A DNA stretch of 64,000 nt, from sequence record MZ868638.1. The stretch is one strand, 5' to 3'. Of the stretch, positions 911 to 64,000 are shown piece after piece; the stretch's first letter is position 1; the number at the start of each line of letters is the position of its first letter. The position numbers were made by a program, and so were the translations under genes. Below the pieces are notes generated by a model. It worked only from the letters and a program-made list of their open reading frames with translations, made no database searches and had not been told where the DNA came from. This DNA is from Escherichia phage vB_EcoM-pEK20.

Positions 911-913
911 ACG

Positions 914-1617: not shown

Positions 1618-1619
1618 CA

Positions 1620-1649: not shown

Positions 1650-1674
1650 ATTCATAATTACTTGGATGGGTAAA

Positions 1675-1946: not shown

Positions 1947-2486
1947 ATGAGAACATTTTTAACCGGACCTTATCTATCCCTGATGAATGCTTTTACACAC
2001 CATTCTGATGCTAGAGTAGAAGAAATTTGTAAGAACGGTTATGCCCCACCATTTGAAGACGTACTCAAGCAGTACTGTACACTTCGTTTAGACGGTGGCA
2101 GACAATCCGGTAAATCAATTGCTGTGACTAATTTTGCTGCTAATTGGTTGTATGATGGCGGAACGGTTATTGTTCTTTCTAATACTTCAGCTTATGCTAA
2201 AATTTCTGCTGGCAACATTGAAAAAGAATTTTCTCGTTATTCTAGCGACGATATTCGATTCCGTTTATTTACTGATTCTGTTCGTAGTTTTATTGGTAAT
2301 GAAGGACATAAATTCCGTGGATTAACACTTTCTCGTATTCTGTACATAATTGACGAGCCTATTAAAGCTCCTGATATGGATAAGATTTACGACATCCATA
2401 TTAAAACAGTCCAACACTGTTGCAAAAGCAAATATTGCATCGGCGGTAATGCTCGTCCTCAATTTTTTGTGATTGGAATGCAATGA
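1947..2486 (+). CDS. Small P-loop NTPase (Walker A GGRQSGKS, Walker B ILYIIDEP)
   Basis: Motifs read from translation; family not assignable by eye. Confidence 0.4.
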   Translation: MRTFLTGPYLSLMNAFTHHSDARVEEICKNGYAPPFEDVLKQYCTLRLDGGRQSGKSIAVTNFAANWLYDGGTVIVLSNTSAYAKISAGNIEKEFSRYSSDDIRFRLFTDSVRSFIGNEGHKFRGLTLSRILYIIDEPIKAPDMDKIYDIHIKTVQHCCKSKYCIGGNARPQFFVIGMQ

Positions 2487-2791
2487 TGACCGCTATTGAA
2501 GTTTTTGAGTACTGTTATAACAGCCCAGTATGCAATAAAAGGGCCCTTGTAGAAAATTATGAGATTTACCATTTTAAACCTAAACGATACCGTTTGACTA
2601 AAGGTCCGTTCGCAGGGCAGCAGGTTCTTTGTACTGCTCCTAATGCACGGTTGATGACTAGTATTCCACATTTCAAAATGGAATTTATTGATGGGCCATT
2701 TAAAGGATTAATCACTCAAAGTTTAATGGCGTTTAATTCCGACCCATTTTTGATTAAAGAAAAAACTTGGATAAATTTATTTTCTAATTGA
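2483..2791 (+). CDS. Hypothetical protein, start overlaps stop of upstream NTPase (ATGA)
   Basis: ORF with overlapping start/stop suggesting translational coupling. Confidence 0.3.
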   Translation: MMTAIEVFEYCYNSPVCNKRALVENYEIYHFKPKRYRLTKGPFAGQQVLCTAPNARLMTSIPHFKMEFIDGPFKGLITQSLMAFNSDPFLIKEKTWINLFSN

Positions 2792-2797: not shown

Positions 2798-3160
2798 ATG
2801 AAAGCATATCAAATTCTTGAAGGTGAACATAAAGGCACTATTTATTTTGAAGACGGTACTCAAGCCCGGATTATTGTCTCTAAGACTTTTAAAGAAGACA
2901 CTATTGTAGACCCGGAAATTTTCTACGGTTTGAATGCTCGTGAAATTGAAATTGAACATCAACCTAAAGTTAAAATTGAAGGTGGTCAACACCTGAACGT
3001 TAACGTTCTGCGTCGCGAAACTCTGGAAGATGCAGTTAAGCATCCAGAAAAATATCCGCAGCTGACCATCCGTGTATCCGGTTATGCAGTTCGCTTTAAC
3101 TCTCTGACTCCGGAACAGCAGCGCGACGTTATCGCTCGTACCTTTACCGAGAGTCTATAA
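2798..3160 (+). CDS. Autonomous glycyl radical cofactor (GrcA/YfiD-like)
   Basis: C-terminal ~58 aa [59 protein letters not shown] matches E. coli GrcA as recalled, including the glycyl-radical motif RVSGY. Confidence 0.85.
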
Positions 3161-3384
3161 TGGCTAAATTGATTATAGAAGGGTCTGAAGATGTTTTAAA
3201 ATGTTTTGCCGCCTGGTTTAGTTGCCCAGGCGAGCAATCATTCATTGAAGCATTTAGAACGGGTGATATTACTGGAAACTATCCGACAACTGATATCACT
3301 GTACGTGGATATGGTATTAATGAGCCTATCCAATTGGTCGAATATGACCTTGCCACCGATGAGGAAATTCCTTATGTCGATTGA
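3160..3384 (+). CDS. Hypothetical protein
   Basis: ORF only. Confidence 0.3.
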   Translation: MAKLIIEGSEDVLKCFAAWFSCPGEQSFIEAFRTGDITGNYPTTDITVRGYGINEPIQLVEYDLATDEEIPYVD

Positions 3385-3619
3385 AGACATCAAAGGCTAC
3401 AAGCCGCATACCGATGATAAAATCGGTAAAGTGAACGCTATTAAAGATGCCGAAGTTCGTTTAGGACTTATTCTAGACGCCCTGGCAGAAGAAGCATTAT
3501 CAGCAAATACTCCTGAAGCTCTGACGGCTTTGTCCCAATTGAACTGTGCTAAAGAACGCCTAAAGGAAGCTAGTATGTGGGCTTGTCGTGCGGTATTTCA
3601 ACCAGAGGAAAAATACTAA
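3374..3619 (+). CDS. Hypothetical protein
   Basis: Internal ATG of ORF 3206-3619, overlaps upstream stop. Confidence 0.3.
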
Positions 3620-3918
3620 TGGCTCAAATCCTATCAGGCTTTGGAACTCATTATGAAGCATCTCGACGCATAACTGAAAGCAATCCTTTTGGCCTTGTTC
3701 CGAAGCACAAGAAAATTCAAAGCCTTGATGACTTTGAGAATCGCCTATGGGCCCTCTTTAATGAGTACAAGGCATATCTGAAAGAAGACGCTGACGATTG
3801 TCTTGAAGAAGATGAGATTGCGTATTACGAACAACGCCTTGAACAGCTCAAGAACTTCCACCAGGTTCGTGACGAAGTATCTAAAGCAGTTAAAAAGTTA
3901 ATTCCTTTCAAAGAGTAG
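3619..3918 (+). CDS. Hypothetical protein
   Basis: ATG 3619 overlapping upstream stop (TAATG). Confidence 0.3.
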
Positions 3919-3946
3919 TTTACTTCTCCTCTAGTTGTGTTACTAT
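3918..3946 (+). promoter_or_regulatory. T4-type early promoter with stem-loop (PeSL-like)
   Basis: GTTTAC 3918-3923, TACTAT 3941-3946; arm TTCTCCTCTAGTTG 3924-3937 pairs with CAACTAGAGGAGAA 3955-3968. Confidence 0.45.
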
Positions 3947-3974
3947 AGACCTGTCAACTAGAGGAGAAATCAAA

Positions 3975-4433
3975 ATGACTATCAATTCAGACGTTTTTAT
4001 CCGCCGCAATAAACTCCGTCGAATCTTTGAAACGGAGTTCCGCAAAATAAATGCCAGTATAAAAGATGCTGCAAAGTCTCTTGGACTACCGGGCTTTCAT
4101 ATCAAGTATTCTCAACATCTCTTAGATCGTGCCATCCAGAGAGAAATAGATGAGAATTACGTTTTTGAATTATTTCATAAAGTAAAAAATCATGTTAAAG
4201 AAGTTGCAGAATTTTTATCAATGCCGGCACGTCCAGATGTTGATGAAGATTTTGTCGAAGGTGTCGAATATCGCCCAGGCCGTTTAGAAATAACTGATGG
4301 AAATCTTTGGTTAGGACTTACAGTTTGTCGCGAAAATCCAGCATTCAAAATGAAGACTCTTCAATGCAGAATGGCTATTATTAACAATAAACGACTACCA
4401 GGAAAAGCTTCTAAAGCAGTGATTAAAATCTAG
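3975..4433 (+). CDS. regB: RegB-like sequence-specific endoribonuclease
   Basis: 152 aa; resembles T4 RegB as recalled and lies between denV and tk. Confidence 0.55.
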   Translation: MTINSDVFIRRNKLRRIFETEFRKINASIKDAAKSLGLPGFHIKYSQHLLDRAIQREIDENYVFELFHKVKNHVKEVAEFLSMPARPDVDEDFVEGVEYRPGRLEITDGNLWLGLTVCRENPAFKMKTLQCRMAIINNKRLPGKASKAVIKI

Positions 4434-24271: not shown

Positions 24272-24829
24272 ATGACCGAACAAAAACCTAAAAATAACTA
24301 TGTGAATAATAAAGAGCTTCTCGCCGCTATAATCGAGTGGAAAAAGGAGCTCTTAAATAATAAAGACCCAAACAAAATTATTCGTCAGAATGATACCATC
24401 GGTTTAGCAATTATGCTTATCGCCGAAGGCCTGTCCAAACGTTTCAACTTTTCAGGATATACCCAGTCTTGGAAGCAGGAGATGATTGCAGATGGGATTG
24501 AAGCCTCTATTAAGGGACTTCATAATTTCGACGAAACTAAGTACAATAACCCACATGCATACATAACTCGAGCTTGTTTTAATGCTTTTGTCCAACGTAT
24601 CAAAAAAGAACGTAAGGAAGTTGCAAAGAAATATAGTTACTTCGTTCATAACGTCTACGACAGTCATGACGATGATATGGTAGCGTTGGTAGATGAAACG
24701 TTTATTCAAGACATCTACGATAAAATGACGCATTATGAAGAATCCGCTTATAAAGCTCCTGGGGCTGAAAAGAAGGAAGTTGTTAGCGATTCGCCTAGTT
24801 TGGATTTTTTATATGAGGATGACAATTGA
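24272..24829 (+). CDS. 55: Late transcription sigma factor gp55
   Basis: 185 aa, near-identical to T4 gp55 as recalled. Confidence 0.9.
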
Positions 24830-25028
24830 CATCTCTAACTACTTAGAAGAACCTTTTGACGAAGCAATCCCTTATTTGGTAAAACTGTTGGGTCGTGAAT
24901 TTAAAATTAATTTTGACATCGACCCTTTGAACCCACATGACGTGTCATTTTCGATAAATGGGACTCCGGTTGAGTATGAGTTCTGTATTGAAGAGGATGG
25001 ACGTTTTTATTTTAATTTAATGAGATAA
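24813..25028 (+). CDS. Hypothetical protein
   Basis: Internal ATG of ORF 24735-25028. Confidence 0.3.
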
Positions 25029-25029
25029 T

Positions 25030-25353
25030 ATGACTACCGAGATTATTGAAAATAAAGAAGCAGAAGATGCAGTAGCTAAAATGCTACAAGAAATCCAAAA
25101 GAAAAATGAAGCTGAAGCACGTAAAAAATCCGAAAAGATTCTTAAAAAGAATCGTTTTGAACTAAACCGTCTTTATGCTCATGCTCAAGAAGCAGCAATT
25201 CAAAACAACTTCGAAGCTTACGAATATGCTATTAAGAAATCTCGGGATATTCTACGACAACCATATAATGACAAGTTAATTAAAATCCAGTGGATTACTA
25301 CTCGTCAGGCTATTGAGGACATCATTAATGGCGCTAGTTCAAACAAAGTTTAA
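25030..25353 (+). CDS. Hypothetical protein
   Basis: ORF only. Confidence 0.3.
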   Translation: MTTEIIENKEAEDAVAKMLQEIQKKNEAEARKKSEKILKKNRFELNRLYAHAQEAAIQNNFEAYEYAIKKSRDILRQPYNDKLIKIQWITTRQAIEDIINGASSNKV

Positions 25354-25746
25354 ACGTCTGAAGCTGAACGCAGGGTTCACCCTTAAATTGGGAGGTCCTC
25401 TTTGTGTTAAAATTTCTGAAAAGGAATATCACGACGGTTCTATTACAGAAATTTGTCCGCCTATTGTAAAGGCAGACCCAAAACAACTCGTGTGGGTTGA
25501 TTCATTTCAAGTTAAGAAATGGTGGAAACGATGAGAGAAATCGATTTAGGCATTTTCTGAGAGGTGCTTATGCATGACGAACATCCCGACTTCTGAAAAT
25601 TTCGATAAAATCCGTAAAGGCAAAGCAGAAAGAATGAGACGTTTTAAAGAGTCTTATGATAAAGCTAAAGCCGAAGGAACTATTACATACAAGCCCATTC
25701 GATTTAAAAGTTCAAATGAGCCTCTGTACGGTGTACTATGTGGATA

Positions 25747-25816: not shown

Positions 25817-26836
25817 ATGAAAATTTTAAATTTAGGTGATTGGCATTTAGGTGTTAAAGCCGATGATGAGTGGGTTCAATCCATTCAGTTGGATGGAATT
25901 AAGCAGGCGATAGAATATTCTAAGAAAAATGGAATTACTACATGGATTCAATACGGCGATATTTTTGATGTGCGAAAAGCAATCACGCATAAAACTATGG
26001 AGTTCGCACGTGAAATAGTTCAAATGCTTGATGATGCTGGTATTACCCTACATACTGTTGTAGGAAACCATGATATGCACTTTAAAAATACTTTAACTCC
26101 AAACGCTTCTACTGAGCTTTTAGCTAAATATCCTAATGTTAAAGTATATGATAAGCCTACTACAGTAGATTTTGACGGATGTTTGATTGATTTAATTCCT
26201 TGGATGTGCGAAGAAAATACTGGTGAAATTCTTGAACATATCAAAACTTCATCTGCTTCTTTTTGTGTTGGGCACTGGGAACTGAATGGTTTTTATTTCT
26301 ATAAAGGAATGAAGTCTCATGGGCTTGAACCTGATTTTTTAAAGACCTATAAACAAGTCTGGTCCGGCCACTTCCACACAATCTCTGAAGCTGCTAACGT
26401 CAAATATATTGGGACACCATGGACCCTTACTGCAGGTGATGAAAACGACCCTCGAGGATTCTGGGTATTTGACACCGATGTTGAACGTATGGAATTTATT
26501 CCTAATGAAACAACATGGCATCGACGAATCACTTATCCGTTTAAAGGCAAAATCAATTATTCTGATTATACTAATCTAGCCGTACGTGTTATAGTATCAG
26601 AAATTGATTCAGAGTTGACTAAGTTTGAATCTGAACTTGAAAAAGTAGTTCACTCTCTTCGTATGGTTTCTAAAGTTGATAACAGTGTTGAATCTGATGA
26701 CGACCAGGAAATCGAGATTAAATCACTTCAAGATATCATTAAAGAATATATTGACGCGATTCCAGATATCTCAGACGAAGACAGAGAAGCGCTGGTCAAA
26801 TATTCCAACGAACTTTATATTGAGGCAACACAATGA
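25817..26836 (+). CDS. 47: Recombination endonuclease subunit gp47 (Mre11-like)
   Basis: Phosphoesterase motifs GDWHLG, GNHD; matches T4 gp47. Confidence 0.9.
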   Translation: MKILNLGDWHLGVKADDEWVQSIQLDGIKQAIEYSKKNGITTWIQYGDIFDVRKAITHKTMEFAREIVQMLDDAGITLHTVVGNHDMHFKNTLTPNASTELLAKYPNVKVYDKPTTVDFDGCLIDLIPWMCEENTGEILEHIKTSSASFCVGHWELNGFYFYKGMKSHGLEPDFLKTYKQVWSGHFHTISEAANVKYIGTPWTLTAGDENDPRGFWVFDTDVERMEFIPNETTWHRRITYPFKGKINYSDYTNLAVRVIVSEIDSELTKFESELEKVVHSLRMVSKVDNSVESDDDQEIEIKSLQDIIKEYIDAIPDISDEDREALVKYSNELYIEATQ

Positions 26837-35818: not shown

Positions 35819-36454
35819 ATGAAAACTACTCCTATTACTATCGCTATTGACGCAATCATAAAACAAGCTTCTTCTTTGGCCGCTATGGCCAAAGTAATTA
35901 GTCAAAACCCTGCTCGTTATAATGCTATTCTAGAAACTCTTCGACGCCCGGGACTTAGTAATTATGAAAGTCGTGTAATTATTACAGGTGTGGGTAAGAA
36001 TGCTAATATTGCAACTAAAGCTTCTGAGACATTTGCTTCACTTGGTATCCCGAGTATGTACTTGAACACCGGGCATTATTCTCACGGTGATGCAGGATTC
36101 ATTGCGCCTAATGATGTGTTGATTCATATTAGTCGTTCTGGTAAAACTGAAGAAATGATAGGCGTGGCTAAGCATCTTAAAATGATTCGTCCGAACGTCA
36201 AACAGATTCTGTTGCATTGTAACCCAGACATTCCACAAGAAAATGAAGCCCTTTTTGATTACTCTTTCTGTACAGGCATCGCAGTAGAGGTTGATGAGAA
36301 TTCTCTGGCTCCGACTATGTCCACTACATTGTTGTTAGCGCTTATCGATACGTTTGCTATCAACCTTTCGTCTGAACGTGGATTTACCTCTAATGACTTC
36401 CTTAAGTTCCACCCTGGCGGTGCACTAGGTGCCATGTTACGAGGCGAACAATGA
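35819..36454 (+). CDS. SIS-domain sugar-phosphate isomerase, KdsD/GutQ-like (D-arabinose-5-phosphate isomerase family)
   Basis: GVGKNANIATKASETFASLGIPS...HGDAGF...HISRSGKTEE...LAPTMSTT...RGFTSNDFLKFHPGGALG parallels the E. coli KdsD SIS domain motif for motif. Confidence 0.75.
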   Translation: MKTTPITIAIDAIIKQASSLAAMAKVISQNPARYNAILETLRRPGLSNYESRVIITGVGKNANIATKASETFASLGIPSMYLNTGHYSHGDAGFIAPNDVLIHISRSGKTEEMIGVAKHLKMIRPNVKQILLHCNPDIPQENEALFDYSFCTGIAVEVDENSLAPTMSTTLLLALIDTFAINLSSERGFTSNDFLKFHPGGALGAMLRGEQ

Positions 36455-36635: not shown

Positions 36636-38324
36636 ATGAAAAAAGCTGTTATTCTTGGTGCTGGACTGGCAACTCGTTTGTATCCAATAACGCATCATAT
36701 TCCTAAGGTGCTTGTTAACTATAAACAAGACACTATTCTGAGCAATTTGTATACAATTTATTCTGACCTTGGCGCAGATGAAATTATTGTAGTAGTTCAT
36801 TCAAAATTTGCTGAAACTGTTCGAGCTTATTGTGAGCAAGAAGGGTTCAATGTGACTATTCGTACAGTTGATGAAGCGTATGGTTCCGCTTATGCTCTTG
36901 CTAAATTACACAAAGATTTAGACGGCCATAATGTAATTGTTAACTGGTGTGATATTATTCCCGATTTTGGTTCATGGTCTTGGAATGTTAACGCAATCTA
37001 TGTTAAGGGCGACGAATGTCGTTATAATTTCGACGGTGAAAATATCACTAACGTAGGTTCAACAGGTGGTAATGTTGTAGGAATTTATCAGTTCAAAGAC
37101 TGGGAATTCTATATGGGTTCTACTGATGAGGAAATTCATGAATACTGCAAAGGACGTGATTTCGTAGAATTCCTTTACGGCAGCGCATTCAATAAATCAG
37201 AGCTTATGAATATCATCGACCTTGGTGATATGCCTAAACTTGAAAAAGCTCATGAAGTTCGTGAACTTAATCGTAGTTTTAATGCAGTTGAAATTGGCGA
37301 AGAAACGGTAACAAAGATTGCTTTAACAGAACAGGGCGTTGCACTTCAAAAAGATGAAGTCAATTGGTATAAGAAAGTTAAATCAGATTCAGTTCCACGG
37401 ATTGTAAGTTATCATCCTGGCGGCCACTTTATTATGGAACGCATTAAAGGTAAGCCAGCATTTGAATATATTAAATCCAAATCGAGTCTTGCTCGTCCAC
37501 AAATTGTTGATGCAATTTTAGACGCACTGAAATTCAGCACAGACACTTATTTTGTAAGTCCTGAAACTGTTCGTCGTGATTTCACTAAAGAATTCTATAC
37601 GAAAGTTATTGATCGTTGTGAAAGTATTCAACCATTGATTGATTCATTTGGTAAAATCACACATGTGAACTACACTAAGATTGGGCGTCTGAAGCCAATG
37701 CTGAAACAAGCTTTAGAACACCTTATTCGTTATCATAACCGTTCTCAGGGACAGTACTCTGTTATTCATGGTGACCCGAACTTCAGTAATACTATGATTA
37801 CTGATAATGGTGAAGTCAAGTTTATCGACCCTCGTGGATATTTTGGTGAAACCAAGATTTATGGGCCAAAATTGTATGATGAAGCTAAAGTGCTTTATGC
37901 TGTTTCAGGTTATGATGAATTCAACGCTAATCCGACCTGGGGTCAGTTTACTATTGATGAAACAACTTGTAATGTGACTATTAACATCAATCCATTAGTT
38001 TACAAATATGGAAAGATGAGTTCGTTTAATGAGTATCATCATTTGGCTGTAGCAATTATCTGGATTGCATTAGGTGGTTATTTCAAGAATAATCCACTTA
38101 AAGCGGTAGCCGCATATTATAAAGGTATGGAACTTCTGACTAAGCAATTACGTAACATGGGCCGTGTACTTCAGGACGGCACTATTAGTTATGATGTAGC
38201 AGAACCTGTAACGGCTACTCTGATTACAAAAAATCCTGGTAAATGGGTACTAACTGATAAAGAAACTGGTGTTTCTTATCGTCCAATCGGTGGCGATATC
38301 ACTCATCAATGGGAACGAATCTAA
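36636..38324 (+). CDS. Bifunctional sugar-1-phosphate nucleotidyltransferase (N-term) / APH-like sugar kinase (C-term)
   Basis: N-term KAVILGAGLATRLYPIT...PKVL is the GxGTRLxPxT nucleotidyltransferase signature; C-term IHGDPNFSNTMI plus KFIDPRGYFG is the HGDxxxxN / D-x-G catalytic pair of APH/choline-kinase-fold kinases. Confidence 0.7.
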   Translation: MKKAVILGAGLATRLYPITHHIPKVLVNYKQDTILSNLYTIYSDLGADEIIVVVHSKFAETVRAYCEQEGFNVTIRTVDEAYGSAYALAKLHKDLDGHNVIVNWCDIIPDFGSWSWNVNAIYVKGDECRYNFDGENITNVGSTGGNVVGIYQFKDWEFYMGSTDEEIHEYCKGRDFVEFLYGSAFNKSELMNIIDLGDMPKLEKAHEVRELNRSFNAVEIGEETVTKIALTEQGVALQKDEVNWYKKVKSDSVPRIVSYHPGGHFIMERIKGKPAFEYIKSKSSLARPQIVDAILDALKFSTDTYFVSPETVRRDFTKEFYTKVIDRCESIQPLIDSFGKITHVNYTKIGRLKPMLKQALEHLIRYHNRSQGQYSVIHGDPNFSNTMITDNGEVKFIDPRGYFGETKIYGPKLYDEAKVLYAVSGYDEFNANPTWGQFTIDETTCNVTININPLVYKYGKMSSFNEYHHLAVAIIWIALGGYFKNNPLKAVAAYYKGMELLTKQLRNMGRVLQDGTISYDVAEPVTATLITKNPGKWVLTDKETGVSYRPIGGDITHQWERI

Positions 38325-38710
38325 TGCACCGTGTAGAAAACATGCTTAATCTTTGTTTTGATGTCGATGATTGTATAACAGAGTGGAATAACAACCGTGA
38401 TTACGTGAACTTCAAACCAGACGTCGAAATGGTGACTGCCATTAATGCCCTGTACGATGCAGGGCATACCATAACGCTTTACACTGCTCGCGGTATGAAG
38501 TCAGTCGGTCCTGGTCGTATAGCAATTGACATTCTCCCAAGTCTGATTCAGAACTTGGCAAACATTGGATTGAAGTACCATAATTTGCTAACACATAAAC
38601 CAGTATATGATTGGATTATCGACGACAAAGCTATGCGTCCTGACGAATTCAAAGCTCTTATGAATAAAGGCGAATTCGAAACATTTAAATCGTATAAACC
38701 GAATCTATAA
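38324..38710 (+). CDS. HAD-superfamily phosphatase, KdsC-like
   Basis: FDVDDCIT (KdsC FDVDGVLT), TLYTAR, IIDDKAM (motif IV DD); start 38324 overlaps upstream stop, alternative 38309. Confidence 0.6.
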   Translation: MHRVENMLNLCFDVDDCITEWNNNRDYVNFKPDVEMVTAINALYDAGHTITLYTARGMKSVGPGRIAIDILPSLIQNLANIGLKYHNLLTHKPVYDWIIDDKAMRPDEFKALMNKGEFETFKSYKPNL

Positions 38711-38766
38711 TAATTTAAGTAAGACCTGCAAAAACCATCGCGTCAATTAACGTGAGATGCAAAAAA

Positions 38767-39927
38767 ATGAATACTTTTAAAATCGGAACGAATTTTGATT
38801 TAGCTCTTCTTGATAAAATCGTAGAGCTCAATAAAACTTATCCTAATAGCTTGATAAACGAAGTATACGGCTCTACAAGAGAAATGGCTTTTGTAGCAGC
38901 CAGACCTGATTTTAGGCTTCCTGACGTTGACAAAAAGATGTTAGAAGATTACGTTAAACGTTGTAACGAATTAGGTATTTGCTTTAACTATACACTCAAC
39001 ACGATAAATCCTGGTTCAAAAAGAGAACTAGTTGAGTGGAAGAAGAAAGCTATTCAGGATTATGTTCAGTATCTTTGGTCAATAGGCGTATGGCGTATTA
39101 CTATCGCTAACCCTGTTGTTATGGAAATTGTTCGTGAAGTCAATAAAGACATTGAGATTGAAGTTTCAACAATTCTACATGTCGATGCTGTAACTCAAAT
39201 CAAATACTTGCATGACCAGTATAATATCAAAAAGGTCTGCTGTGGAATTCATAAGAACCGTTCGGTTTCTTTCCTGAAGCGTGCAGCAGAGTTTTGCAAT
39301 AAGAACAATATAATATTTGAAGTTCTTGTAAATGAGTTCTGTTCTAATGCTGGTAAAGGGTATACAACACATTGTAGCTATCGTGACTCTTGCTATATTT
39401 TCCATAGTACTGATGTTACCGCTGATGATGCTAAATCCTTAAATGGATATCCAATGCAACACTGCATTAAAGCTCGTGATACAGATCCATTTAACTGGTT
39501 GAGAACTCGTTTTGTTCGTCCTCAAGATTTGAAACTTTATAATGATATTGGTATCACTCAATTCAAAGTTTCAGGACGTACAGGTAGCACAGACTACATT
39601 TTGAAAGTTCTTGAAGCTTATGCTTCCGAAAAATTTGAAGGTAATTTGTTGGAATTGTGGAAGCCTTTAGAGACCATTTTCACTCTTGAAAATGAGACCG
39701 AGTTTTCACATACGGTAAATATTGAAACCTCTTTGTTAGATGGCTTTTTAGAAAAAAGGTGGTTCAGACATCCAGATTTCGATTGTGCTAATGAAATCTG
39801 TGGGACGACGTGTACATATTGTGAAAGATATTATAAACGTCAATTATCTAAAAATGGGTTATCAGAAAACTCTATATCTATTATTGATATAACTAACTCT
39901 GACGACGCTTTGAGGTACCCAGAATGA
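38767..39927 (+). CDS. Cys-rich enzyme of unknown family (possible Fe-S/metal-binding)
   Basis: Central Cys cluster KVCCGIH...EFCNKNN...EFCSNAGKGYTTHCSYRDSCY and C-terminal CANEICGTTCTYCERYY; fold not assignable by eye. Confidence 0.4.
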   Translation: MNTFKIGTNFDLALLDKIVELNKTYPNSLINEVYGSTREMAFVAARPDFRLPDVDKKMLEDYVKRCNELGICFNYTLNTINPGSKRELVEWKKKAIQDYVQYLWSIGVWRITIANPVVMEIVREVNKDIEIEVSTILHVDAVTQIKYLHDQYNIKKVCCGIHKNRSVSFLKRAAEFCNKNNIIFEVLVNEFCSNAGKGYTTHCSYRDSCYIFHSTDVTADDAKSLNGYPMQHCIKARDTDPFNWLRTRFVRPQDLKLYNDIGITQFKVSGRTGSTDYILKVLEAYASEKFEGNLLELWKPLETIFTLENETEFSHTVNIETSLLDGFLEKRWFRHPDFDCANEICGTTCTYCERYYKRQLSKNGLSENSISIIDITNSDDALRYPE

Positions 39928-40206: not shown

Positions 40207-40923
40207 ATGGGAAAACATAACACAATGAAATATATTAAAGCCGCAGATTTTCAATCCGCATTTAAAGCTGTCAATCGTGAAATTTTAGAAAACCCGGAAT
40301 TCGTAACTGATTCTCGTATTGGACGTTGTAATGAAATTGGGTCTATGACAGTAGTTGTTGACACTCCATCATCATTCAAAATGACCGACCCACGTATTAA
40401 CCGCATCTCTTATGAATATGCTGAAGACTTCTGGAAGTTTATGGTTTCTGGTGGTACTGATGCAGAAGAAGCATTTAAGGCATATCCTAACGTTGCTAAA
40501 TTTATTTCTAAACCTAAATCAGACGCTTTGCCTGCAAACTTCAACACTTTCTACGGTCCACGAATTGCGGCCCAATTACCAGCTCTTTTAAAAGAACTTA
40601 AAGAGAAGCCTAACTCTCGAAGAGTTGTGTTTCAAATTCTTGAAAGTTCTGATCAGGCTTTGCTTGATTCGGACGAAACGCTTGAATATCCATGTACTGA
40701 CTCAGTGACTTATTATATTCGTGATGGTAAGCTTTATACCCACTGCCATATGCGTTCTCAGAACTGTGCTGTTGTTATGCAGTTGGATTTTTATCTCCAA
40801 GGAAAATTACTTCATTATATCGCTAACGAATGTGGTGTAGAAGTTGGTGATTATACTCATACCATGGTAAGTGCCCATGTGTTTGAACGTGATTTTGATT
40901 ATGTTAAAGGATTCCTTGACTAA
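40207..40923 (+). CDS. 42: Thymidylate-synthase-fold pyrimidine hydroxymethylase (gp42-like, divergent)
   Basis: KPNSRRVVFQIL (TS NPxSRR), YPCTDSV (nucleophile PC), MRSQNCAVVMQLD (TS RSxD...N/D specificity position is Asp); position equals T4 gene 42. Confidence 0.65.
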   Translation: MGKHNTMKYIKAADFQSAFKAVNREILENPEFVTDSRIGRCNEIGSMTVVVDTPSSFKMTDPRINRISYEYAEDFWKFMVSGGTDAEEAFKAYPNVAKFISKPKSDALPANFNTFYGPRIAAQLPALLKELKEKPNSRRVVFQILESSDQALLDSDETLEYPCTDSVTYYIRDGKLYTHCHMRSQNCAVVMQLDFYLQGKLLHYIANECGVEVGDYTHTMVSAHVFERDFDYVKGFLD

Positions 40924-41822
40924 TGGCTATTTTCCGCGTACCTATCTTGAGTATGCGGTCTTATGAAACTGGACAGTATGCTATCCTTAAGGATGGCAAC
41001 TTCCAACTTCATTTGCACCGTGCTAATCCAGGTGATGTGATTACATATCCACGTAATGCATCTGATATTAAAGAATGTGAACGTCTTTTCCCAGAATTTA
41101 AGTTTGTTCCATTATGGTATAAAGATAACGCGTATAACACTCGTAAATATTTCTGGTCTGAAAATGAATTTGTGGTTGATTCATTAATTGCTTATTATGA
41201 TTGTGATTTTCTAATAACAGATATCACTGGATATGATGGTGCTTTTGATGTAGAATTCAATTTCAATATCACCGCAGACCCTAATAAACCGCGTTTTTAT
41301 ATTGACGAATTCTTAAAAACCGACATGTTGTCGGTTAATCGTTCACTTCAAACTACTGTGTTGAATGAACGTCAAAAGGAAGTGCTGGTTAACGCTGGTG
41401 CGGATGGTAATAAGATTATCGTAACGCAGAAAGTTATACGTCCTTCCATCATGCAGCGTCTTGTAGGTGATTTGGCTCCTATTCATCTAGATGGTATTTT
41501 TCATCCATTTCGAATTAGTGACCCGTGCTATCGTTTTGAACAAGTGGTTGAATGTGCAATTCAATTAGGCCAACCGCTTTATATAACCGATCCAAATAAT
41601 AGCTTCGACAGAAATAAGTATCCTGAAGAAGCGCTGATTCGAATTTTTAAACCAACTAAAACCGAGTACTATCAAATTCTTAAAGGACGTCCAAAGATTC
41701 AATATTTCGAAAATCCTGAAGAAGTATTCCATCCAGGTCTTGGTGAGTTCATCTACTTTAATGCTTTAATTTCTTCGCCGTATAATATACCTAAATACGA
41801 AGATGTCGTAATCGAGGAATAA
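40923..41822 (+). CDS. Hypothetical protein at the T4 beta-gt position
   Basis: 299 aa; no motif I can assign. Confidence 0.35.
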   Translation: MAIFRVPILSMRSYETGQYAILKDGNFQLHLHRANPGDVITYPRNASDIKECERLFPEFKFVPLWYKDNAYNTRKYFWSENEFVVDSLIAYYDCDFLITDITGYDGAFDVEFNFNITADPNKPRFYIDEFLKTDMLSVNRSLQTTVLNERQKEVLVNAGADGNKIIVTQKVIRPSIMQRLVGDLAPIHLDGIFHPFRISDPCYRFEQVVECAIQLGQPLYITDPNNSFDRNKYPEEALIRIFKPTKTEYYQILKGRPKIQYFENPEEVFHPGLGEFIYFNALISSPYNIPKYEDVVIEE

Positions 41823-41823: not shown

Positions 41824-42372
41824 ATGGCTAAAATTATTTTAGTAGATGGCCCGGATAATGCTGGTAAAACAACTTTCATTAATGACATAATGGAAATTAG
41901 TGAAAGATATGTAAAGATTGATTTCCCTAAACGAACGGTTGATGGACGTTTCGATGTTAAGTCTCGAAATGAAGTTGGCTGTTTCGAAACGATGCTGAAT
42001 TATTTAGACCCTACTAAGATTTATCTGTTAGATCGTGGATATATTAGTAACTGGGTTTACGGACGTATTCGACAAGATGCGGACTCGGTTCTTGACGTTT
42101 ATGAACAGGATTATGTTCGTCTTTGCCAAAACCATGATGTGTTCACAATTATTTTAACACGTAACGAAATGACTGAAAGTTTTGAAGACGACCTTATTAC
42201 TTTGTCTTCATTCGGTTTTAATACAGTAATTTCATATTTTGAAGAGTTTGCAATCCATAACGAAATCCAAACGTATCAATTACTTAATCATGATGGTGCT
42301 AACAAAGTTATAGGATTTAATGCAAGCGAACGTAATAATTTGATTACAGAAATTATCAAATGGGCTCGTTAA
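41824..42372 (+). CDS. Tmk-like P-loop nucleoside monophosphate kinase
   Basis: IILVDGPDNAGKTT Walker A and LLDRGYISNWVYG resemble thymidylate kinase DRY motif region. Confidence 0.45.
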   Translation: MAKIILVDGPDNAGKTTFINDIMEISERYVKIDFPKRTVDGRFDVKSRNEVGCFETMLNYLDPTKIYLLDRGYISNWVYGRIRQDADSVLDVYEQDYVRLCQNHDVFTIILTRNEMTESFEDDLITLSSFGFNTVISYFEEFAIHNEIQTYQLLNHDGANKVIGFNASERNNLITEIIKWAR

Positions 42373-60245: not shown

Positions 60246-60671
60246 ATGGCTTTTAAAGGTTTTGAAGTTGGTAAGAAATATCGTATTATCAAAGGACAGG
60301 AAGATAATTTCTTGAGAATTCTTAATACGACTGGTAAACGTCTTAATACTAATCTGCATACTACTTTATTGTCCAAAGATTTTATTGTGGAAGAGATGAT
60401 TGGTTACGGCGTTTCTGTGATTGCTGTAGAAGCCGTAGGCGATTATGGCCGAACTATTCATAGTATGCAAGGTGATATTCTGCTTTATGGTGCAGAATTT
60501 AAATTCTTTGAAGAAGTTCCGGAACCAGATACAGCTGTCGATTTCAAAAAAGGCTCTATAGAATTTGTTGATGGTTCGGTGATCGTATCAGGCGATGTGG
60601 TCATTACAGTTAAAAGTGAACAAGGGCGTTTGGCTGCAATTGATGCACTTCAGAAAATTAAATTTAAATAA
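60246..60671 (+). CDS. Hypothetical protein
   Basis: ORF only. Confidence 0.35.
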   Translation: MAFKGFEVGKKYRIIKGQEDNFLRILNTTGKRLNTNLHTTLLSKDFIVEEMIGYGVSVIAVEAVGDYGRTIHSMQGDILLYGAEFKFFEEVPEPDTAVDFKKGSIEFVDGSVIVSGDVVITVKSEQGRLAAIDALQKIKFK

Positions 60672-60689
60672 GGGCTTCGGCCCTTTTTG
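60671..60689 (+). terminator. Rho-independent terminator (UUCG loop)
   Basis: GGGC-TTCG-GCCC then T5. Confidence 0.55.
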
Positions 60690-60734
60690 CTTTAGATTTC
60701 GGATGATAGAATACCTTCATAACGAGGAGACAAC

Positions 60735-62552
60735 ATGATTAAAAATGAAATTAAGGTATTGTCAGATGTAGAACATATTAAGAAACGCAGTGGCATGTAT
60801 ATTGGTTCTTCGGCTAAAGAAGCACATGAGCGTTTTTTGTTTGGTAAATATCAACAAGTTGAATATGTTCCTGGTCTGGTTAAATTAATCGATGAGATTA
60901 TTGACAACTCGGTTGATGAAGCTATTCGTACATCATTTAAGTTTGCAAATAAAATTGATGTGCAAATTAAAAATAATCAAGTTTCGGTGGAAGATAACGG
61001 ACGTGGTATTCCTCAAGGTTTAGTTACCGACCAAACAGGTGAACAAATTCCTGGGCCTGTAGCAGCCTGGACTATTCCAAAGGCCGGTGGTAACTTTGGT
61101 GATGACTCTGAACGCAAGACTGGTGGTATGAACGGCGTCGGGAGTAGTTTAACTAATATCTTCTCTACGTTGTTTACAGGCATCACGTCAGATGGCGAAA
61201 ATGAAATCACTGTTAACTGTTCAAACGGAATGGAAAACAAATCATGGTCTTCTAAGAAATCTAAAGGTAAAGGCACTAAAGTAATCTTCACTCCTGATTT
61301 CTCTTCATTTGAAGAGCATAATTTATCTCAAATTTATTTAGATATTACTTTAGACCGACTTCAAACATTGGCAGTCGTTTATCCTGATATCAAGTTCACA
61401 TTTAATGGTAAAAAGGTTGATGGTAATTTTAAACGATTTGCTAAACAATTTGGTGAAGATAACATCATTCAAGAAAATGATAAAGTCTCTATAGCATTCA
61501 CAACATCACCAGATGGCTTCCGTCATTTAACTTATGTGAATAACATCCATACTAAAAATGGTGGTCATCATGTTGAATGCGTAATGGATGATATCTGCGA
61601 ACATCTTTTGCCAGGTATTAAAAAGAAATATAAGGGTATTGAAGTCACTAAAGCTCGTGTTAAAGAATGTCTCACAATGTTGATGTTTATTAGAGACATG
61701 AGCAATATGCGTTTTGATTCTCAGACTAAAGAACGTTTAACGTCAACGTATGGTGATATTCGTAATCATATCCAATTAGATGCTAAGAAAATTGCTCAGG
61801 CACTTCTTAAAAACGAAGCCTTGATTATGCCTATTGTTGAAGCAGCATTAGCTCGTAAATTGGCGGCAGAAAAGGCTGCAGAAACTAAAGCAGCTAAAAA
61901 GGCAACTAAAGCTAAGGTTCATAAGCATATTAAAGCTAACCAATGTGGTAAAGATGCAGATACGACATTGTTCTTAACAGAAGGTGATTCGGCAATTGGT
62001 TATCTCATTGATGTTCGTGACCGTGAACTACATGGTGGATTCCCATTACGTGGTAAGGTGATGAATAGCTGGGGTATGTCATATGCTGATATGATGAAGA
62101 ACAAAGAGCTCTTTGATATCTGTGCTATCACAGGTCTTATTCTTGGTGAAAAGGCAGAGAATACGAACTATCGTAATATTGCAATTATGACTGATGCCGA
62201 TCATGACGGTCTTGGAAGCATTTATCCGGCTTTGCTTGCTTTCTTTAGTAATTGGCCTGAATTGTTTGAACAAGGACGTATTCGTTTTGTTAAAACGCCT
62301 GTAATTATTGCACAAATTGGCAAAACTCAAAAATGGTTTTATACTGCAGCTGAGTATGAAGAAGTTAAAGATACACTGCCTAAGCATAGTATTCGATACA
62401 TCAAGGGATTGGGCTCCCTTGAAAAGTCAGAATATCGTGAAATGATTCAGAACCCTGTGTACGACGTAGTTAAACTTCCTGAAAATTGGAAAGAACTATT
62501 TGAAATGTTGATGGGTGACGATTCAGAACTTCGTAAAGAATGGATGTCCTAA
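60735..62552 (+). CDS. 39: Topoisomerase II large (ATPase, GyrB-like) subunit, uninterrupted 39+60 equivalent
   Basis: 605 aa continuous ORF; N-terminal GHKL ATPase and C-terminal TOPRIM (FLTEGDSA, MTDADHDG). Confidence 0.9.
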   Translation: MIKNEIKVLSDVEHIKKRSGMYIGSSAKEAHERFLFGKYQQVEYVPGLVKLIDEIIDNSVDEAIRTSFKFANKIDVQIKNNQVSVEDNGRGIPQGLVTDQTGEQIPGPVAAWTIPKAGGNFGDDSERKTGGMNGVGSSLTNIFSTLFTGITSDGENEITVNCSNGMENKSWSSKKSKGKGTKVIFTPDFSSFEEHNLSQIYLDITLDRLQTLAVVYPDIKFTFNGKKVDGNFKRFAKQFGEDNIIQENDKVSIAFTTSPDGFRHLTYVNNIHTKNGGHHVECVMDDICEHLLPGIKKKYKGIEVTKARVKECLTMLMFIRDMSNMRFDSQTKERLTSTYGDIRNHIQLDAKKIAQALLKNEALIMPIVEAALARKLAAEKAAETKAAKKATKAKVHKHIKANQCGKDADTTLFLTEGDSAIGYLIDVRDRELHGGFPLRGKVMNSWGMSYADMMKNKELFDICAITGLILGEKAENTNYRNIAIMTDADHDGLGSIYPALLAFFSNWPELFEQGRIRFVKTPVIIAQIGKTQKWFYTAAEYEEVKDTLPKHSIRYIKGLGSLEKSEYREMIQNPVYDVVKLPENWKELFEMLMGDDSELRKEWMS

Positions 62553-62594
62553 GCTCCTTCTGGAGCTTCATTTTAATTTTAATAAGGCTTAATT

Positions 62595-63695
62595 ATGAAA
62601 GTTATGTTTATCCCATCTCGTGCAGTCCCATTTAATCCTGACCGTGTACAAGGTGGTCTTGAAGCAGTACATTTAAATGTGTTGAAATATCTTGTGTCCA
62701 TCGGTGCTGATATTGATTATATCGGCTTTGATAATGACACGTTTGGTGACTGGAAAGTTACACACCATCCTGTTGGTCATCTGACTAAATTTAGTCTAGG
62801 TATGAGTTATACTATGGCTCGTAAGATTGTTGAACTAGCCGGCATCCATGAATACGATTTTGTTGTTACTATGGAACCGACTAAACTAACCGTTCAGGCA
62901 ATTAAAGACGCAGGTCTCTCTAAAGTTCATAAGAATTTTATGGCAACACCATTTGAACCGGTATCTCGTGGCATTGTTCAAATTTGGGACCAGACTATTC
63001 AAATTCATAAGAATGGTGGTAAGAGTTATGCTCCTACTAAAGCCTTCCGTGAATTTGAACGCAAATATTGTTATATGACTTCAGGTCTGACTGACAAAAT
63101 TGATTATGATTATTGGCGAGCAAATCCGTTGTTTGAAGCCGAAGATTATCCGGTTATTTGTTTGAATGAGAAACCTGAAGTTCTTCCGGCGACTGATCTG
63201 ATTATTAGTGCACAACGTTATGACACTAAAATGCGTCGTACTGATGTTGCTCTTGAAGCGATTAAAGCACTAGGCGAAAATGGTGTAGGATACTGTCCAA
63301 GCAAATGGGCACCACCAGCTAAATATCCTGTTATTATTGATGCTCCACACAGTGAAATCATGGAACGTCTTAAAACAGCTAAAGCGCTTATTAATACGTG
63401 TCCTGACACAGGTACGGTAGAGAATAGTTCTATTGAAGCCATCTCTAAAGGTGTCCCTGTAATCCAGTTAGTTTTTAAGGATTATCCTCATGCGACATTC
63501 GAATACGACCCAGATACTGTGCGTGTAGAAATTGATTCCTCTACTCCTAAGAAAGAAGTAGTTGCGCTTTACACAAAAGCTGTATTAGAATTCACTGACA
63601 CATACGAAGCTCGAGTTAAACGTGCTGAAGCAGTATGGAAGAAGTATAACCGAGATGCAGTTGTTGCGATGTGGGATAAAATCTTCACAGCGTAA
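62595..63695 (+). CDS. GT-B fold glycosyltransferase (candidate hydroxymethyl-cytosine sugar transferase)
   Basis: N-terminal Rossmann-like beta-strand/Gly loop and E-x7-E-like region SIEAISKGVPVI; sits between gene 39 and rIIA.1. Confidence 0.55.
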   Translation: MKVMFIPSRAVPFNPDRVQGGLEAVHLNVLKYLVSIGADIDYIGFDNDTFGDWKVTHHPVGHLTKFSLGMSYTMARKIVELAGIHEYDFVVTMEPTKLTVQAIKDAGLSKVHKNFMATPFEPVSRGIVQIWDQTIQIHKNGGKSYAPTKAFREFERKYCYMTSGLTDKIDYDYWRANPLFEAEDYPVICLNEKPEVLPATDLIISAQRYDTKMRRTDVALEAIKALGENGVGYCPSKWAPPAKYPVIIDAPHSEIMERLKTAKALINTCPDTGTVENSSIEAISKGVPVIQLVFKDYPHATFEYDPDTVRVEIDSSTPKKEVVALYTKAVLEFTDTYEARVKRAEAVWKKYNRDAVVAMWDKIFTA

Positions 63696-63787
63696 ATCCT
63701 GAATCGCCTGAGGCACTATTACACATAAGATGATAAATTATATGGTCTTTAGTAATAGTGCCCTAGGAATCTACTGAAGAGAATATT

Positions 63788-63988
63788 ATGAGAACATATA
63801 ACGTGGACTTGGAACTTTTTGATAAAGCAGTGCTCCGGGAATTCCGGCTTATCCAAAGATTTTTTGATATCGAATCAGCTGAAGCCTTTAAAGAACGCTT
63901 TAAGGAAATTCGATATAAAATACAAACCGATACAGCTACTAAAGAAGAACTTCTTGAAGTAGCAGAAATTTTTAAACGTAACTTGTGA
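63788..63988 (+). CDS. rIIA.1-like small protein
   Basis: Position at end of the early region; sequence not verified. Confidence 0.3.
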   Translation: MRTYNVDLELFDKAVLREFRLIQRFFDIESAEAFKERFKEIRYKIQTDTATKEELLEVAEIFKRNL

Positions 63989-64000
63989 TGAGAGAAAAAT

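What the first reader, a model, noticed from the sequence alone, without database searches (positions are those of the whole stretch)
62595..63695. GT-B glycosyltransferase next to gene 39, with alpha-gt and beta-gt slots lacking homologues
The 366-aa protein has a GT-B-like N-terminus and an E-x7-E-like motif (SIEAISKGVPVI). In T4, alpha-gt lies between 55 and 47 and beta-gt between 42 and uvsX. Here those positions hold small unknown ORFs (25030-25534) and an unknown 299-aa ORF (40923-41822). The donor pathway at 35.8-38.7 kb and this distant transferase are therefore likely two halves of one modification system. From memory, a putative arabinosyltransferase was proposed at this genomic location in RB69-type phages.
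Basis: partly seen in the sequence, partly recalled or inferred. Interest (0 to 1): 0.7.

Follow-up and report, generated by a model that had tools for sequence, protein, structure and literature searches.

The report
Known phage DNA arabinose-adding enzyme
This gene encodes an already described, crystallised sugar-transferring enzyme of RB69-like phages that most likely adds the second arabinose to the phage's arabinose-decorated cytosines, so it is real but not new.

Summary
The ORF is real: 62595..63695 (+), 366 aa, between the topoisomerase II large-subunit gene (39) and rIIA.1/rIIA. The window is a Mosigvirus (RB69-like). The protein is 99.2% identical to RB69 ORF003c/gp3, which was proposed as an arabinosyltransferase in 2018. 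It is also ~99% identical to the crystallised "phage HY126 glycosyltransferase" (PDB 9IQZ, and 9IR0 with UDP).

My AF2 model (pLDDT 92) is a GT-B fold. It lies closest to bacterial GT4-type retaining enzymes and is only distantly like T4 alpha-gt.

Three points need correction:
- The modified base is 5-hydroxycytosine, not hmC.
- The "unknown" 299-aa ORF in the beta-gt slot is itself a GT-B glycosyltransferase and the probable first arabinosyltransferase.
- The E-x7-E motif is incomplete.

Gene distribution fits an extender role. The 366-aa family has 0 copies in mono-arabinosylated Thanatos, 1 in di-arabinosylated Mosigvirus and 2 in tri-arabinosylated Acinetobacter phages. In vitro work on the DLP3 homologues points the same way. 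The enzyme therefore most likely adds the second, beta-1,3-linked arabinofuranose from UDP-Araf.

Verdict: already known; low interest.

The parts
62595..63695 (+). 366-aa GT-B (GT4-like) DNA arabinofuranosyltransferase, orthologue of RB69 ORF003c/gp3 and of the HY126 glycosyltransferase (PDB 9IQZ/9IR0). Probable second-step (beta-1,3) Araf transferase.
62551..62568 (+). Terminator-like hairpin plus T-run between gene 39 and the transferase gene. An AAGG ribosome-binding site lies at 62585-62588.
   Evidence: Consensus scan and sequence. One such site is what shuffles also give, so this is weak evidence. It is conserved in HY126.
40923..41822 (+). 299-aa compact GT-B glycosyltransferase in the T4 beta-gt slot (= RB69 gp46:47, DLP3 gp79, Thanatos TH1_063). 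Probable first (alpha) arabinosyltransferase acting on 5-hydroxycytosine.
40207..40923 (+). Thymidylate-synthase homologue: 5-hydroxy-dCMP synthase (replaces T4 gp42 dCMP hydroxymethylase).
   Evidence: Pfam Thymidylat_synt. PDB 9iqc/9ir2 E=2.5e-162. 24% identical to T4 gp42. RSQN signature and 71% identity to DLP3 gp80. Activity shown for RB69 gp48 and DLP3 gp80 in PMC13326640.
35819..36454 (+). SIS-domain arabinose-5-phosphate isomerase (RB69 gp55 equivalent).
   Evidence: Pfam SIS, 1e-10. Syntenic with the DLP1/DLP3 'arabinose 5-phosphate isomerase'.
36636..38324 (+). Bifunctional sugar kinase / UDP-arabinose pyrophosphorylase (RB69 gp52:53, HY126 AfhE equivalent).
   Evidence: Pfam NTP_transferase N-terminal domain plus weak kinase-family C-terminal hits. 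PDB 1jyk, 1.9e-5. Function taken from PMC13326640 citing He et al. 2026.
38309..38710 (+). Small HAD-like phosphatase (RB69 gp51, HY126 AfhF equivalent): Araf-1,5-P2 to Araf-1-P.
   Evidence: Position between the pyrophosphorylase and ThyA-homologue genes, as for the DLP1 'HAD-like protein'. No Pfam hit. Function inferred from PMC13326640.
38752..39927 (+). Peptidase_U32-like protein (RB69 gp50 equivalent). Role in the pathway unknown.
   Evidence: Pfam Peptidase_U32, 7.5e-11. Absent from the DLP1/DLP3 cluster.
41824..42372 (+). Nucleotide-kinase-like protein (RB69 gp45, DLP3 gp78 equivalent). In Acinetobacter phages the homologues of the 366-aa transferase follow it directly.
   Evidence: ORF. 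Synteny with the DLP1/DLP3 'putative thymidylate kinase'. No Pfam hit.

Best explanation
The 366-aa protein is the Mosigvirus DNA arabinofuranosyltransferase known as RB69 ORF003c/gp3, crystallised from phage HY126. From memory of Mahler et al. 2025, it is probably also the enzyme they named 'Aat'.

The proposed pathway:
1. The phage makes 5-hydroxy-dCMP with its thymidylate-synthase homologue and incorporates it during replication.
2. The gene cluster beside gene 43 makes UDP-D-arabinofuranose.
3. The compact 299-aa GT-B enzyme in that cluster most likely puts the first, alpha-linked arabinose on the 5-hydroxyl.
4. The 366-aa enzyme then binds UDP-Araf in the cleft between its two Rossmann-like domains and transfers a second arabinofuranose onto O3 of the first sugar, on DNA. 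The product is beta-D-Araf-(1-3)-alpha-D-Araf-5-O-dC.

What is shown and what is inferred:
- Shown here or by deposited data: the GT-B fold, UDP binding by the near-identical HY126 protein, orthology to RB69 gp3, and the gene distribution.
- Shown for homologues only: DLP3 gp76 plus gp77 extend arabinosylated RB69 DNA with UDP-Araf.
- Inferred: the second-step assignment for this protein, the linkage it makes, and the roles of individual residues (G20-G21 loop, R208/R214 for the diphosphate, E281 for the ribose, E276 in place of the first Glu of EX7E).
For: IDENTITY
- 363/366 identical to PDB 9iqz/9ir0. Foldseek labels these 'phage HY126 glycosyltransferase' and '...with UDP', released 2025-07-16.
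- 99.2% identical to RB69 ORF003c, at the same locus.
- The HY126 locus is syntenic.

FOLD

LINK TO THE PATHWAY
- In Acinetobacter phages DLP1 and DLP3 the two homologues (43% and 40% identity) lie directly after the kinase gene of the arabinose cluster.

EXTENDER ROLE
- The 366-aa family occurs in about 210 phage records: one copy in Mosigvirus and two in Acinetobacter T4-likes. No Serratia or Shewanella record matches.
- The 299-aa family occurs in 348 records, including Serratia LC53 and Shewanella Thanatos-1; Serratia 92A1 is also a member.
- Reported chemistry matches the copy number: Thanatos is mono-arabinosylated, RB69/NP/Bas46/Bas47 mono+di, DLP3 tri (PMC13326640, PMC13390438, PMC12923530).
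- DLP3 gp76+gp77 with UDP-Araf convert RB69 DNA to the tri-arabinosyl form. None of the three DLP3 glycosyltransferases alone acted on plain 5hoC-DNA (PMC13326640, section 26).
- Deleting the arabinosyltransferase 'Aat' in Bas46 gave a viable phage that became sensitive to a defence system (PMC13216743 citing Mahler 2025).
Against: - No assay of this protein, or of RB69 gp3, is described in any paper I could read. The two papers most likely to contain one (He et al. 2026, Nat Chem Biol; Mahler et al. 2025, Cell Host Microbe) are not in the library.
- The PDB title names it 'the' HY126 glycosyltransferase, which would also fit a primary-transferase role.
- All close fold neighbours are retaining enzymes, whereas the assigned product is beta-linked. 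Whether that means retention or inversion depends on the anomer of the UDP-D-Araf donor, which I could not establish.
- The Thanatos homologue of the 299-aa protein was reported to have UDP-xylose pyrophosphorylase activity (PMC12838424). This clouds its assignment as first transferase.
- In DLP3 both paralogues were needed for a single addition, so 'one paralogue = one sugar' may be too simple.
- I did not verify that 'Aat' of Mahler et al. is this gene.
Confidence: 0.7

Rival explanations
1. It is the primary DNA arabinosyltransferase, putting the first arabinose on the modified cytosine. This is the proposal of Thomas et al. 2018 and of the first reader. On this view the 299-aa protein has another job, for example sugar-nucleotide synthesis.
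For: - It was the original candidate from profile searches (PMC6024577).
- The PDB entries call it 'phage HY126 glycosyltransferase' in the singular.
- The Thanatos homologue of the 299-aa protein showed UDP-xylose pyrophosphorylase activity in vitro (PMC12838424).
Against: - Phages reported to carry arabinosylated 5hoC but lacking any member of this family exist: Serratia LC53 and 92A1, and Shewanella Thanatos. They do have the 299-aa family (PMC13326640).
- The 299-aa protein is itself a GT-B fold, and the pathway already has an NTP-transferase domain protein.
- The DLP3 homologues gp76 and gp77 did not modify 5hoC-DNA but did extend arabinosylated DNA (PMC13326640).
Confidence: 0.15
2. It does not act alone. 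It is one subunit of a transferase complex (with the 299-aa enzyme or as a homo-oligomer), or it carries out both additions processively.
For: - DLP3 gp76 and gp77 were active only together (PMC13326640, section 26).
Against: - Mosigviruses have only one family member, so a paralogue heterodimer is impossible there.
- The gene lies about 20 kb from the 299-aa gene.
- Nothing I ran tests protein-protein contacts.
Confidence: 0.1
3. It glycosylates something other than DNA, such as a host envelope glycan, a phage protein or a small molecule. On this view its link to DNA modification is coincidental.
For: - The nearest fold neighbours act on lipids, LPS cores, thiols and pterins.
- In Mosigvirus the gene is not inside the modification cluster.
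Against: - The family is confined to phages that also carry the arabinose/5hoC cluster.
- In Acinetobacter phages it sits inside that cluster.
- The homologues act on DNA in vitro (PMC13326640).
Confidence: 0.03

Closest known systems
RB69 ORF003c / gp3 (NP_861693.1) and the phage HY126 glycosyltransferase (PDB 9IQZ apo, 9IR0 with UDP)
   Same: - Same protein for practical purposes: 363/366 identical to RB69 and 363/366 to the PDB chain.
- Same length and same position between gene 39(+60) and rIIA.1.
- Same companion cluster.
   Different: - Three conservative substitutions against RB69 (T56N, V231A, T327I).
- Three against the PDB chain (Y160H, G164A, S315F).
- None falls in the conserved motifs.
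Acinetobacter phage DLP3 gp77 and gp76 (experimentally active arabinosyltransferases 2/3)
   Same: - Same family: 42.6% and 40.3% identity over the full length.
- Same conserved GG loop, QR-D-x3-R and DTGTVEN-x3-EAIS-G-P motifs.
- Act on already arabinosylated DNA with UDP-Araf (PMC13326640).
   Different: - Two tandem paralogues located inside the cluster, against one displaced copy here.
- DLP3 goes on to a third (beta-1,5) arabinose.
- Both paralogues were required together in vitro.
Bacterial GT4-type retaining GT-B glycosyltransferases (BshA, PimA/PimB, MshA, WaaG, sucrose-phosphate synthase, BH4 glucosyltransferase)
   Same: - Two-Rossmann GT-B architecture.
- N-terminal Gly-Gly loop.
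- C-terminal E-A-x3-G-x-P helix.
- UDP-sugar donor.
   Different: - Only 10-14% identity.
- No Pfam Glycos_transf_1 or Glyco_trans_4 match.
- The first Glu of EX7E is replaced (T272/G273, with E276 nearby).
- Furanose donor.
- The acceptor is a sugar on duplex DNA.
T4 alpha-glucosyltransferase (GT72; PDB 1XV5/1Y6F) and beta-glucosyltransferase (GT63)
   Same: - Phage GT-B enzymes that glycosylate modified cytosines in DNA after replication from a UDP-sugar.
   Different: - No sequence similarity.
- Different genome position.
- Different base (5hoC rather than 5hmC) and different sugar (arabinofuranose rather than glucose).
- Probably acts on a sugar rather than on the base.
- The RefSeq label 'DNA alpha-glucosyltransferase' for the HX01 orthologue is a misnomer.
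T2/T6 second-step glucosyltransferase that makes gentiobiosyl-hmC
   Same: Functional analogy only (established knowledge): a second phage transferase that extends a sugar already attached to DNA, adding protection against defence systems.
   Different: Hexose rather than pentofuranose, and an hmC rather than a 5hoC base. Homology was not tested here.

Membership tests
RB69 gp3 / HY126 glycosyltransferase family (phage DNA arabinofuranosyltransferase, PHROG 8302) | Full-length sequence homology to RB69 ORF003c and to the crystallised HY126 protein | tested here: met
   99.2% identical to RB69 ORF003c. 363/366 identical to PDB 9iqz. PHROG 8302 E=1e-222 over positions 1-366.
RB69 gp3 / HY126 glycosyltransferase family (phage DNA arabinofuranosyltransferase, PHROG 8302) | Conserved genome position in Mosigvirus, between gene 39(+60) and rIIA.1 | tested here: met
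   Same order in the window, HX01, RB69 and HY126.
RB69 gp3 / HY126 glycosyltransferase family (phage DNA arabinofuranosyltransferase, PHROG 8302) | Co-occurrence with the 5-hydroxy-dCMP synthase and UDP-arabinose cluster | tested here: met
   The cluster is present at 35.8-42.4 kb. The family is found only in Mosigvirus and Acinetobacter T4-like phages, lineages that also carry the 299-aa family. In DLP1/DLP3 it is adjacent to the cluster.
RB69 gp3 / HY126 glycosyltransferase family (phage DNA arabinofuranosyltransferase, PHROG 8302) | Transfer of Araf from UDP-Araf to arabinosylated 5hoC in DNA | not testable with these tools
   Shown only for DLP3 gp76+gp77 together (PMC13326640). UDP binding by the HY126 protein is implied by the title of PDB 9ir0.
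GT-B fold glycosyltransferases | Two Rossmann-like beta/alpha/beta domains with an inter-domain cleft | tested here: met
CAZy GT4 / Pfam Glycos_transf_1 + Glyco_trans_4 | Significant match to the Pfam family models | tested here: not met
   0 Pfam families at E<=10 for this protein. Among 14 family members, one hit Glycos_transf_1 (most likely the outlier P0138) and three gave weak GT4-conflict hits.
CAZy GT4 / Pfam Glycos_transf_1 + Glyco_trans_4 | E-x7-E motif in the C-terminal domain | tested here: not met
   The second Glu is present (E281, nearly invariant). Position -8 is G273, and the canonical first Glu aligns with T272. E276 lies at -5 within the invariant DTGTVEN.
CAZy GT4 / Pfam Glycos_transf_1 + Glyco_trans_4 | N-terminal Gly-rich loop and a basic pair for the diphosphate | tested here: inconclusive
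   G20-G21 are nearly invariant, and R208 and R214 are invariant in the close family with PimA-like spacing. Their contacts were not examined because no coordinates were available.
T4 alpha-glucosyltransferase family (GT72) | Sequence homology to T4 a-gt and location between genes 47 and 55 | tested here: not met
T4 beta-glucosyltransferase family (GT63) | Sequence or close fold homology to T4 b-gt | tested here: not met

The most novel reading that the evidence does not exclude
The family is a sequence-orphan branch of GT-B enzymes specialised for extending a glycan on duplex DNA with a furanose donor. It has no Pfam match and only about 8 clusters among 1.84 billion representatives. An invariant DTGTVEN-x3-E element replaces the EX7E motif.

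If it works with retention, like all its fold neighbours, then the beta-1,3 product implies a UDP-beta-D-Araf donor. The compact 299-aa enzyme would then have to be an inverting GT-B. That would be an unusual pairing of mechanisms within one pathway, and possibly a new CAZy family.
Probability: 0.3. Interest if true: 0.35.

Novelty: already known. Interest (0 to 1): 0.15.

Why it matters
Arabinosylated 5-hydroxycytosine protects RB69-like phages, which are common in phage-therapy collections, from restriction enzymes, some CRISPR-Cas systems and glycosylases. The number of arabinoses changes which defences still work. Knowing which gene adds the second sugar allows phage DNA to be engineered with one or two arabinoses, and allows the modification state to be predicted from a genome.

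All of this has already been laid out in the 2018-2026 literature, and a crystal structure exists. For this scan, the practical value is threefold:
- Correcting database labels such as 'DNA alpha-glucosyltransferase', 'hypothetical protein' and 'phosphatidylinositol mannosyltransferase'.
- Correcting the hmC assumption.
- Recognising the 299-aa ORF as the second transferase of the system.

Tried and rejected
- Pfam scan of the protein: nothing even at E<=10.
- Profile search of PDB sequences with the family alignment: only the HY126 entry, no bridge to GT4.
- Word-indexed homologue search: 5 clusters. Exhaustive HMMER search: 16 hits, about 8 of them real. The family is too narrow to trace to a bacterial ancestor; only P0138 (E=5e-5) links it to canonical GT4.
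- tblastn and blastp with T4 alpha-gt and beta-gt: no relationship. 'Diverged alpha-gt' is rejected as a family assignment.
- The two most relevant papers (He 2026; Mahler 2025) could not be read by DOI or PMID. Full-text searches for '5ara-hC', 'HY126' and 'Aat' returned only citing papers.
- Bas47 was fetched at 1-7000 in the hope of finding the locus, but that record starts at the terminase genes. Not pursued further.
- The promoter/terminator scan gave no more sites than shuffled sequence. No regulatory claim is made.
- Model coordinates are not exposed to scripts, so residue-level contacts with UDP could not be checked.
Full report
**1. Observation**

- It begins 42 nt after the stop codon of a 605-aa gene 39(+60) topoisomerase II large subunit (60735..62552).
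- A 66-aa rIIA.1 homologue (63788..63988) follows it, and rIIA starts at the window's end, as shown by the annotated orthologous loci of HX01, RB69 and HY126.
- A megablast of 62000..64000 finds 153 full-length matches in phage genomes. The best is Escherichia phage HX01 at 99.4% (genus Mosigvirus, the RB69 group).
- The window is not HX01 itself, because HX01 has an HNH endonuclease gene in front of gene 39 that the window lacks.

**2. What the protein is**

Sequence libraries say little.
- Pfam gives no match even at E<=10.
- PHROGs places it in family 8302, 'unknown function'.

Comparison with solved structures is decisive.
- The protein is 363/366 identical to PDB 9IQZ/9IR0.
- Foldseek describes these entries as 'phage HY126 glycosyltransferase' and 'phage HY126 glycosyltransferase with UDP', released 2025-07-16.
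- HY126 (PP658200.1) is a Mosigvirus-like phage with the same topoisomerase - transferase - rIIA.1 - rIIA order. Its DNA is about 99% identical across the locus.
- The protein is also 99.2% identical to RB69 ORF003c (three substitutions).

**3. Motifs**

- The 'GT-B-like N-terminus' is real. RVQGGLEAV contains the Gly-Gly loop typical of GT4 enzymes, and G20-G21 are nearly invariant across the family.
- The 'E-x7-E-like' claim is only half right. E281 of IEAISKGVPVI is the second Glu of the motif and is nearly invariant.
- The residue eight positions upstream is G273. In the alignment with the one canonical relative (P0138: DE-SFGITALEA) the first Glu aligns with T272.
- The family instead has an invariant D271-T-G-T-V-E276-N277.
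- R208 and R214 (AQRYDTKMRR) are invariant in the close family and are spaced like the diphosphate-binding R196/K202 of PimA. This comparison draws on established knowledge of PimA, and I could not check contacts because model coordinates are not exposed.

**4. The T4 'slots'**

T4's gene order is as recalled: 42 - beta-gt - segA - uvsX, and 47 - 47.1 - alpha-gt - mobB - a-gt.2 to a-gt.5 - 55. Neither T4 transferase has a tblastn match in the window below E=1.

The alpha-gt slot:
- Between gene 55 (24272..24829) and gene 47 (25817..26836), the 'small unknown ORFs' are homologues of T4 a-gt.5, a-gt.4, a-gt.3 and a-gt.2 (46-76% identity).
- Only alpha-gt, mobB and 47.1 are missing.

The beta-gt slot is not empty of function:
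- The 299-aa ORF (40923..41822) has no Pfam or PDB sequence match.
- The window therefore encodes two GT-B transferases, one of them in the place where T4 keeps beta-gt.

**5. The pathway and the base**

From gene 43 to uvsX the window carries these genes:

| Coordinates | Product |
|---|---|
| 35819..36454 | SIS-domain sugar-phosphate isomerase |
| 36636..38324 | 562-aa NTP-transferase plus kinase-like protein |
| 38309..38710 | 133-aa protein |
| 38752..39927 | Peptidase_U32-like protein |
| 40207..40923 | Thymidylate-synthase homologue |
| 40923..41822 | 299-aa transferase |
| 41824..42372 | Kinase-like protein |

The thymidylate-synthase homologue points to 5-hydroxycytosine rather than hmC.
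- It is only 24% identical to T4 gp42.
- It is near-identical to PDB 9IQC/9IR2/9IQU (E=2.5e-162), which belong to the same deposit series as the transferase.
- It is 71% identical to DLP3 gp80.
- It carries RSQN where T4 gp42 has RSND. This is the D169N signature that Lee et al. (PMC13326640) define for 5-hydroxy-dCMP synthases. They verified the activity for RB69 gp48 and DLP3 gp80.

The published chemistry agrees.
- NMR shows that RB69 DNA carries beta-D-Araf-(1-3)-alpha-D-Araf-5-hydroxy-dC alongside the mono-arabinosyl form, not arabinosyl-hmC (PMC13326640, section 23).
- The Mosigvirus NP shows the same modification (PMC13390438). Bas46/Bas47 are reported to be doubly arabinosylated (PMC12923530).

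**6. Which step does the 366-aa enzyme perform?**

Three lines of evidence point to the second step.

Distribution:
- In 50,697 phage records the 366-aa family occurs in about 210. Mosigviruses have one copy each and Acinetobacter T4-like phages have two. No Serratia, Shewanella, Klebsiella or Yersinia phage name appears; one record is labelled Tegunavirus.
- The 299-aa family occurs in 348 records, including Serratia LC53, Shewanella Thanatos-1, Klebsiella, Yersinia and Dhakavirus phages, and also Serratia 92A1.
- Reported sugar counts follow the copy number of the 366-aa family: Thanatos mono (0 copies), RB69/NP/Bas46/Bas47 di (1 copy), DLP3 tri (2 copies) (PMC13326640, PMC13390438, PMC12923530).

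Neighbourhood:
- In DLP1 and DLP3 the two homologues (43% and 40% identity) sit directly after the kinase gene of the cluster. This ties the family to the pathway even though the Mosigvirus copy lies about 20 kb away.

Biochemistry on homologues:
- DLP3 gp76 plus gp77 with UDP-Araf add a third arabinose to RB69 DNA. None of the three DLP3 glycosyltransferases alone modified 5hoC-DNA (PMC13326640, section 26).

Published opinion agrees.
- PMC13326640 lists RB69 gp3 as 'beta-arabinosyltransferase 2' and gp46:47 as 'arabinosyltransferase 1'.
- Deleting the arabinosyltransferase 'Aat' in Bas46 left a viable phage with altered defence sensitivity (PMC13216743 citing Mahler 2025). From memory, Aat is this gene and adds arabinose to arabinosyl-hydroxycytosine, but I could not verify that.

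**7. Caveats**

- I found no direct assay of the Mosigvirus protein in any paper I could read. The two papers most likely to contain one are not held.
- The singular PDB title is compatible with a primary-transferase role.
- The fold neighbours are all retaining enzymes, whereas the assigned linkage is beta. Whether that is retention depends on the unknown anomer of the UDP-D-Araf donor.
- The Thanatos homologue of the 299-aa protein was reported as a UDP-xylose pyrophosphorylase (PMC12838424), which conflicts with its GT-B fold and its first-transferase assignment.
- I give 0.7 to the second-step model, 0.15 to the primary-transferase model, about 0.1 to an obligate-complex or dual-step model, and 0.03 to a non-DNA substrate.

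**8. Comparison with known families**

- It is a member of the RB69 gp3 / HY126 glycosyltransferase family. Identity, position and companion cluster were all tested and met.
- It has the GT-B fold (met).
- It works like a GT4 enzyme but fails the sequence tests for GT4 membership: no Pfam match and an incomplete EX7E motif.
- It is not a member of the T4 alpha-gt or beta-gt families. The RefSeq name 'DNA alpha-glucosyltransferase' for the HX01 orthologue and 'GDP-mannose-dependent ... mannosyltransferase' in another record are misnomers.

**9. Novelty and verdict**

- The gene was proposed as the RB69 arabinosyltransferase in 2018 (PMC6024577).
- Its near-identical orthologue has been crystallised with UDP (released 2025).
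- Its place as the second transferase of the arabinosyl-5-hydroxycytosine pathway is stated in 2026 papers.

What this analysis adds is corrections: the base is 5hoC, a second transferase sits in the beta-gt slot, EX7E is incomplete, and the role is probably that of an extender. Interest is low (0.15).

Noticed in passing
window 40923..41822: The 299-aa ORF in the T4 beta-gt slot has no Pfam or PDB sequence match, yet it models confidently as a compact GT-B glycosyltransferase. Its Thanatos homologue (TH1_063) was published as a UDP-xylose pyrophosphorylase, while Lee et al. 2026 propose the family as the first arabinosyltransferase. The two assignments conflict and the question is unresolved.
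   Followed up: partly
L007 (Shigella phage JK45, MK962757.1) 601..2204: The full-length transferase gene is followed by a 136-aa ORF whose last 130 residues are 100% identical to residues 237-366 of the transferase. This is either a ~500-bp partial tandem duplication or an assembly artefact. The record is classified as Tequatrovirus although its locus is Mosigvirus-like.
   Followed up: partly
window 60671..60735 versus L001 (HX01) 2057..2740: HX01 carries an HNH homing-endonuclease gene immediately upstream of, and overlapping the start of, gene 39. The window has only a 63-nt gap there, so this looks like a mobile-element presence/absence polymorphism among otherwise ~99% identical phages.
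   Followed up: no
window 24813..25744: Homologues of T4 a-gt.5, a-gt.4, a-gt.3 and a-gt.2 are retained in order between genes 55 and 47, while alpha-gt, mobB and 47.1 are cleanly absent (70-nt gap before gene 47). The small 'a-gt.x' genes are therefore not functionally tied to alpha-gt.
   Followed up: partly
window 38752..39927: A 391-aa Peptidase_U32-like protein (RB69 gp50 equivalent) sits inside the Mosigvirus arabinose/5hoC cluster but is missing from the DLP1/DLP3 cluster. Its role in the pathway is unknown.
   Followed up: no
phage collection: One record whose organism name starts with 'Tegunavirus' (the Yersinia TG1 group) matches the 366-aa family. The listed Yersinia phage records carry only the 299-aa family. 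This could be a mislabelled record or a di-arabinosylating Tegunavirus.
   Followed up: no
L008 (HY126, PP658200.1) 3001..4098: The GenBank HY126 protein reads GVLGIQ where the PDB chain from the same phage, the window and all relatives read GVPVIQ, inside the conserved E-A-x3-G-x-P motif. This is probably two sequencing errors in the genome record.
   Followed up: no
window 62551..62568: A 7-bp GC-rich hairpin followed by a T-run lies directly after the gene 39 stop codon and before the transferase's ribosome-binding site. It is conserved in HY126 and may be an attenuating terminator or an RNA-stability element.
   Followed up: no
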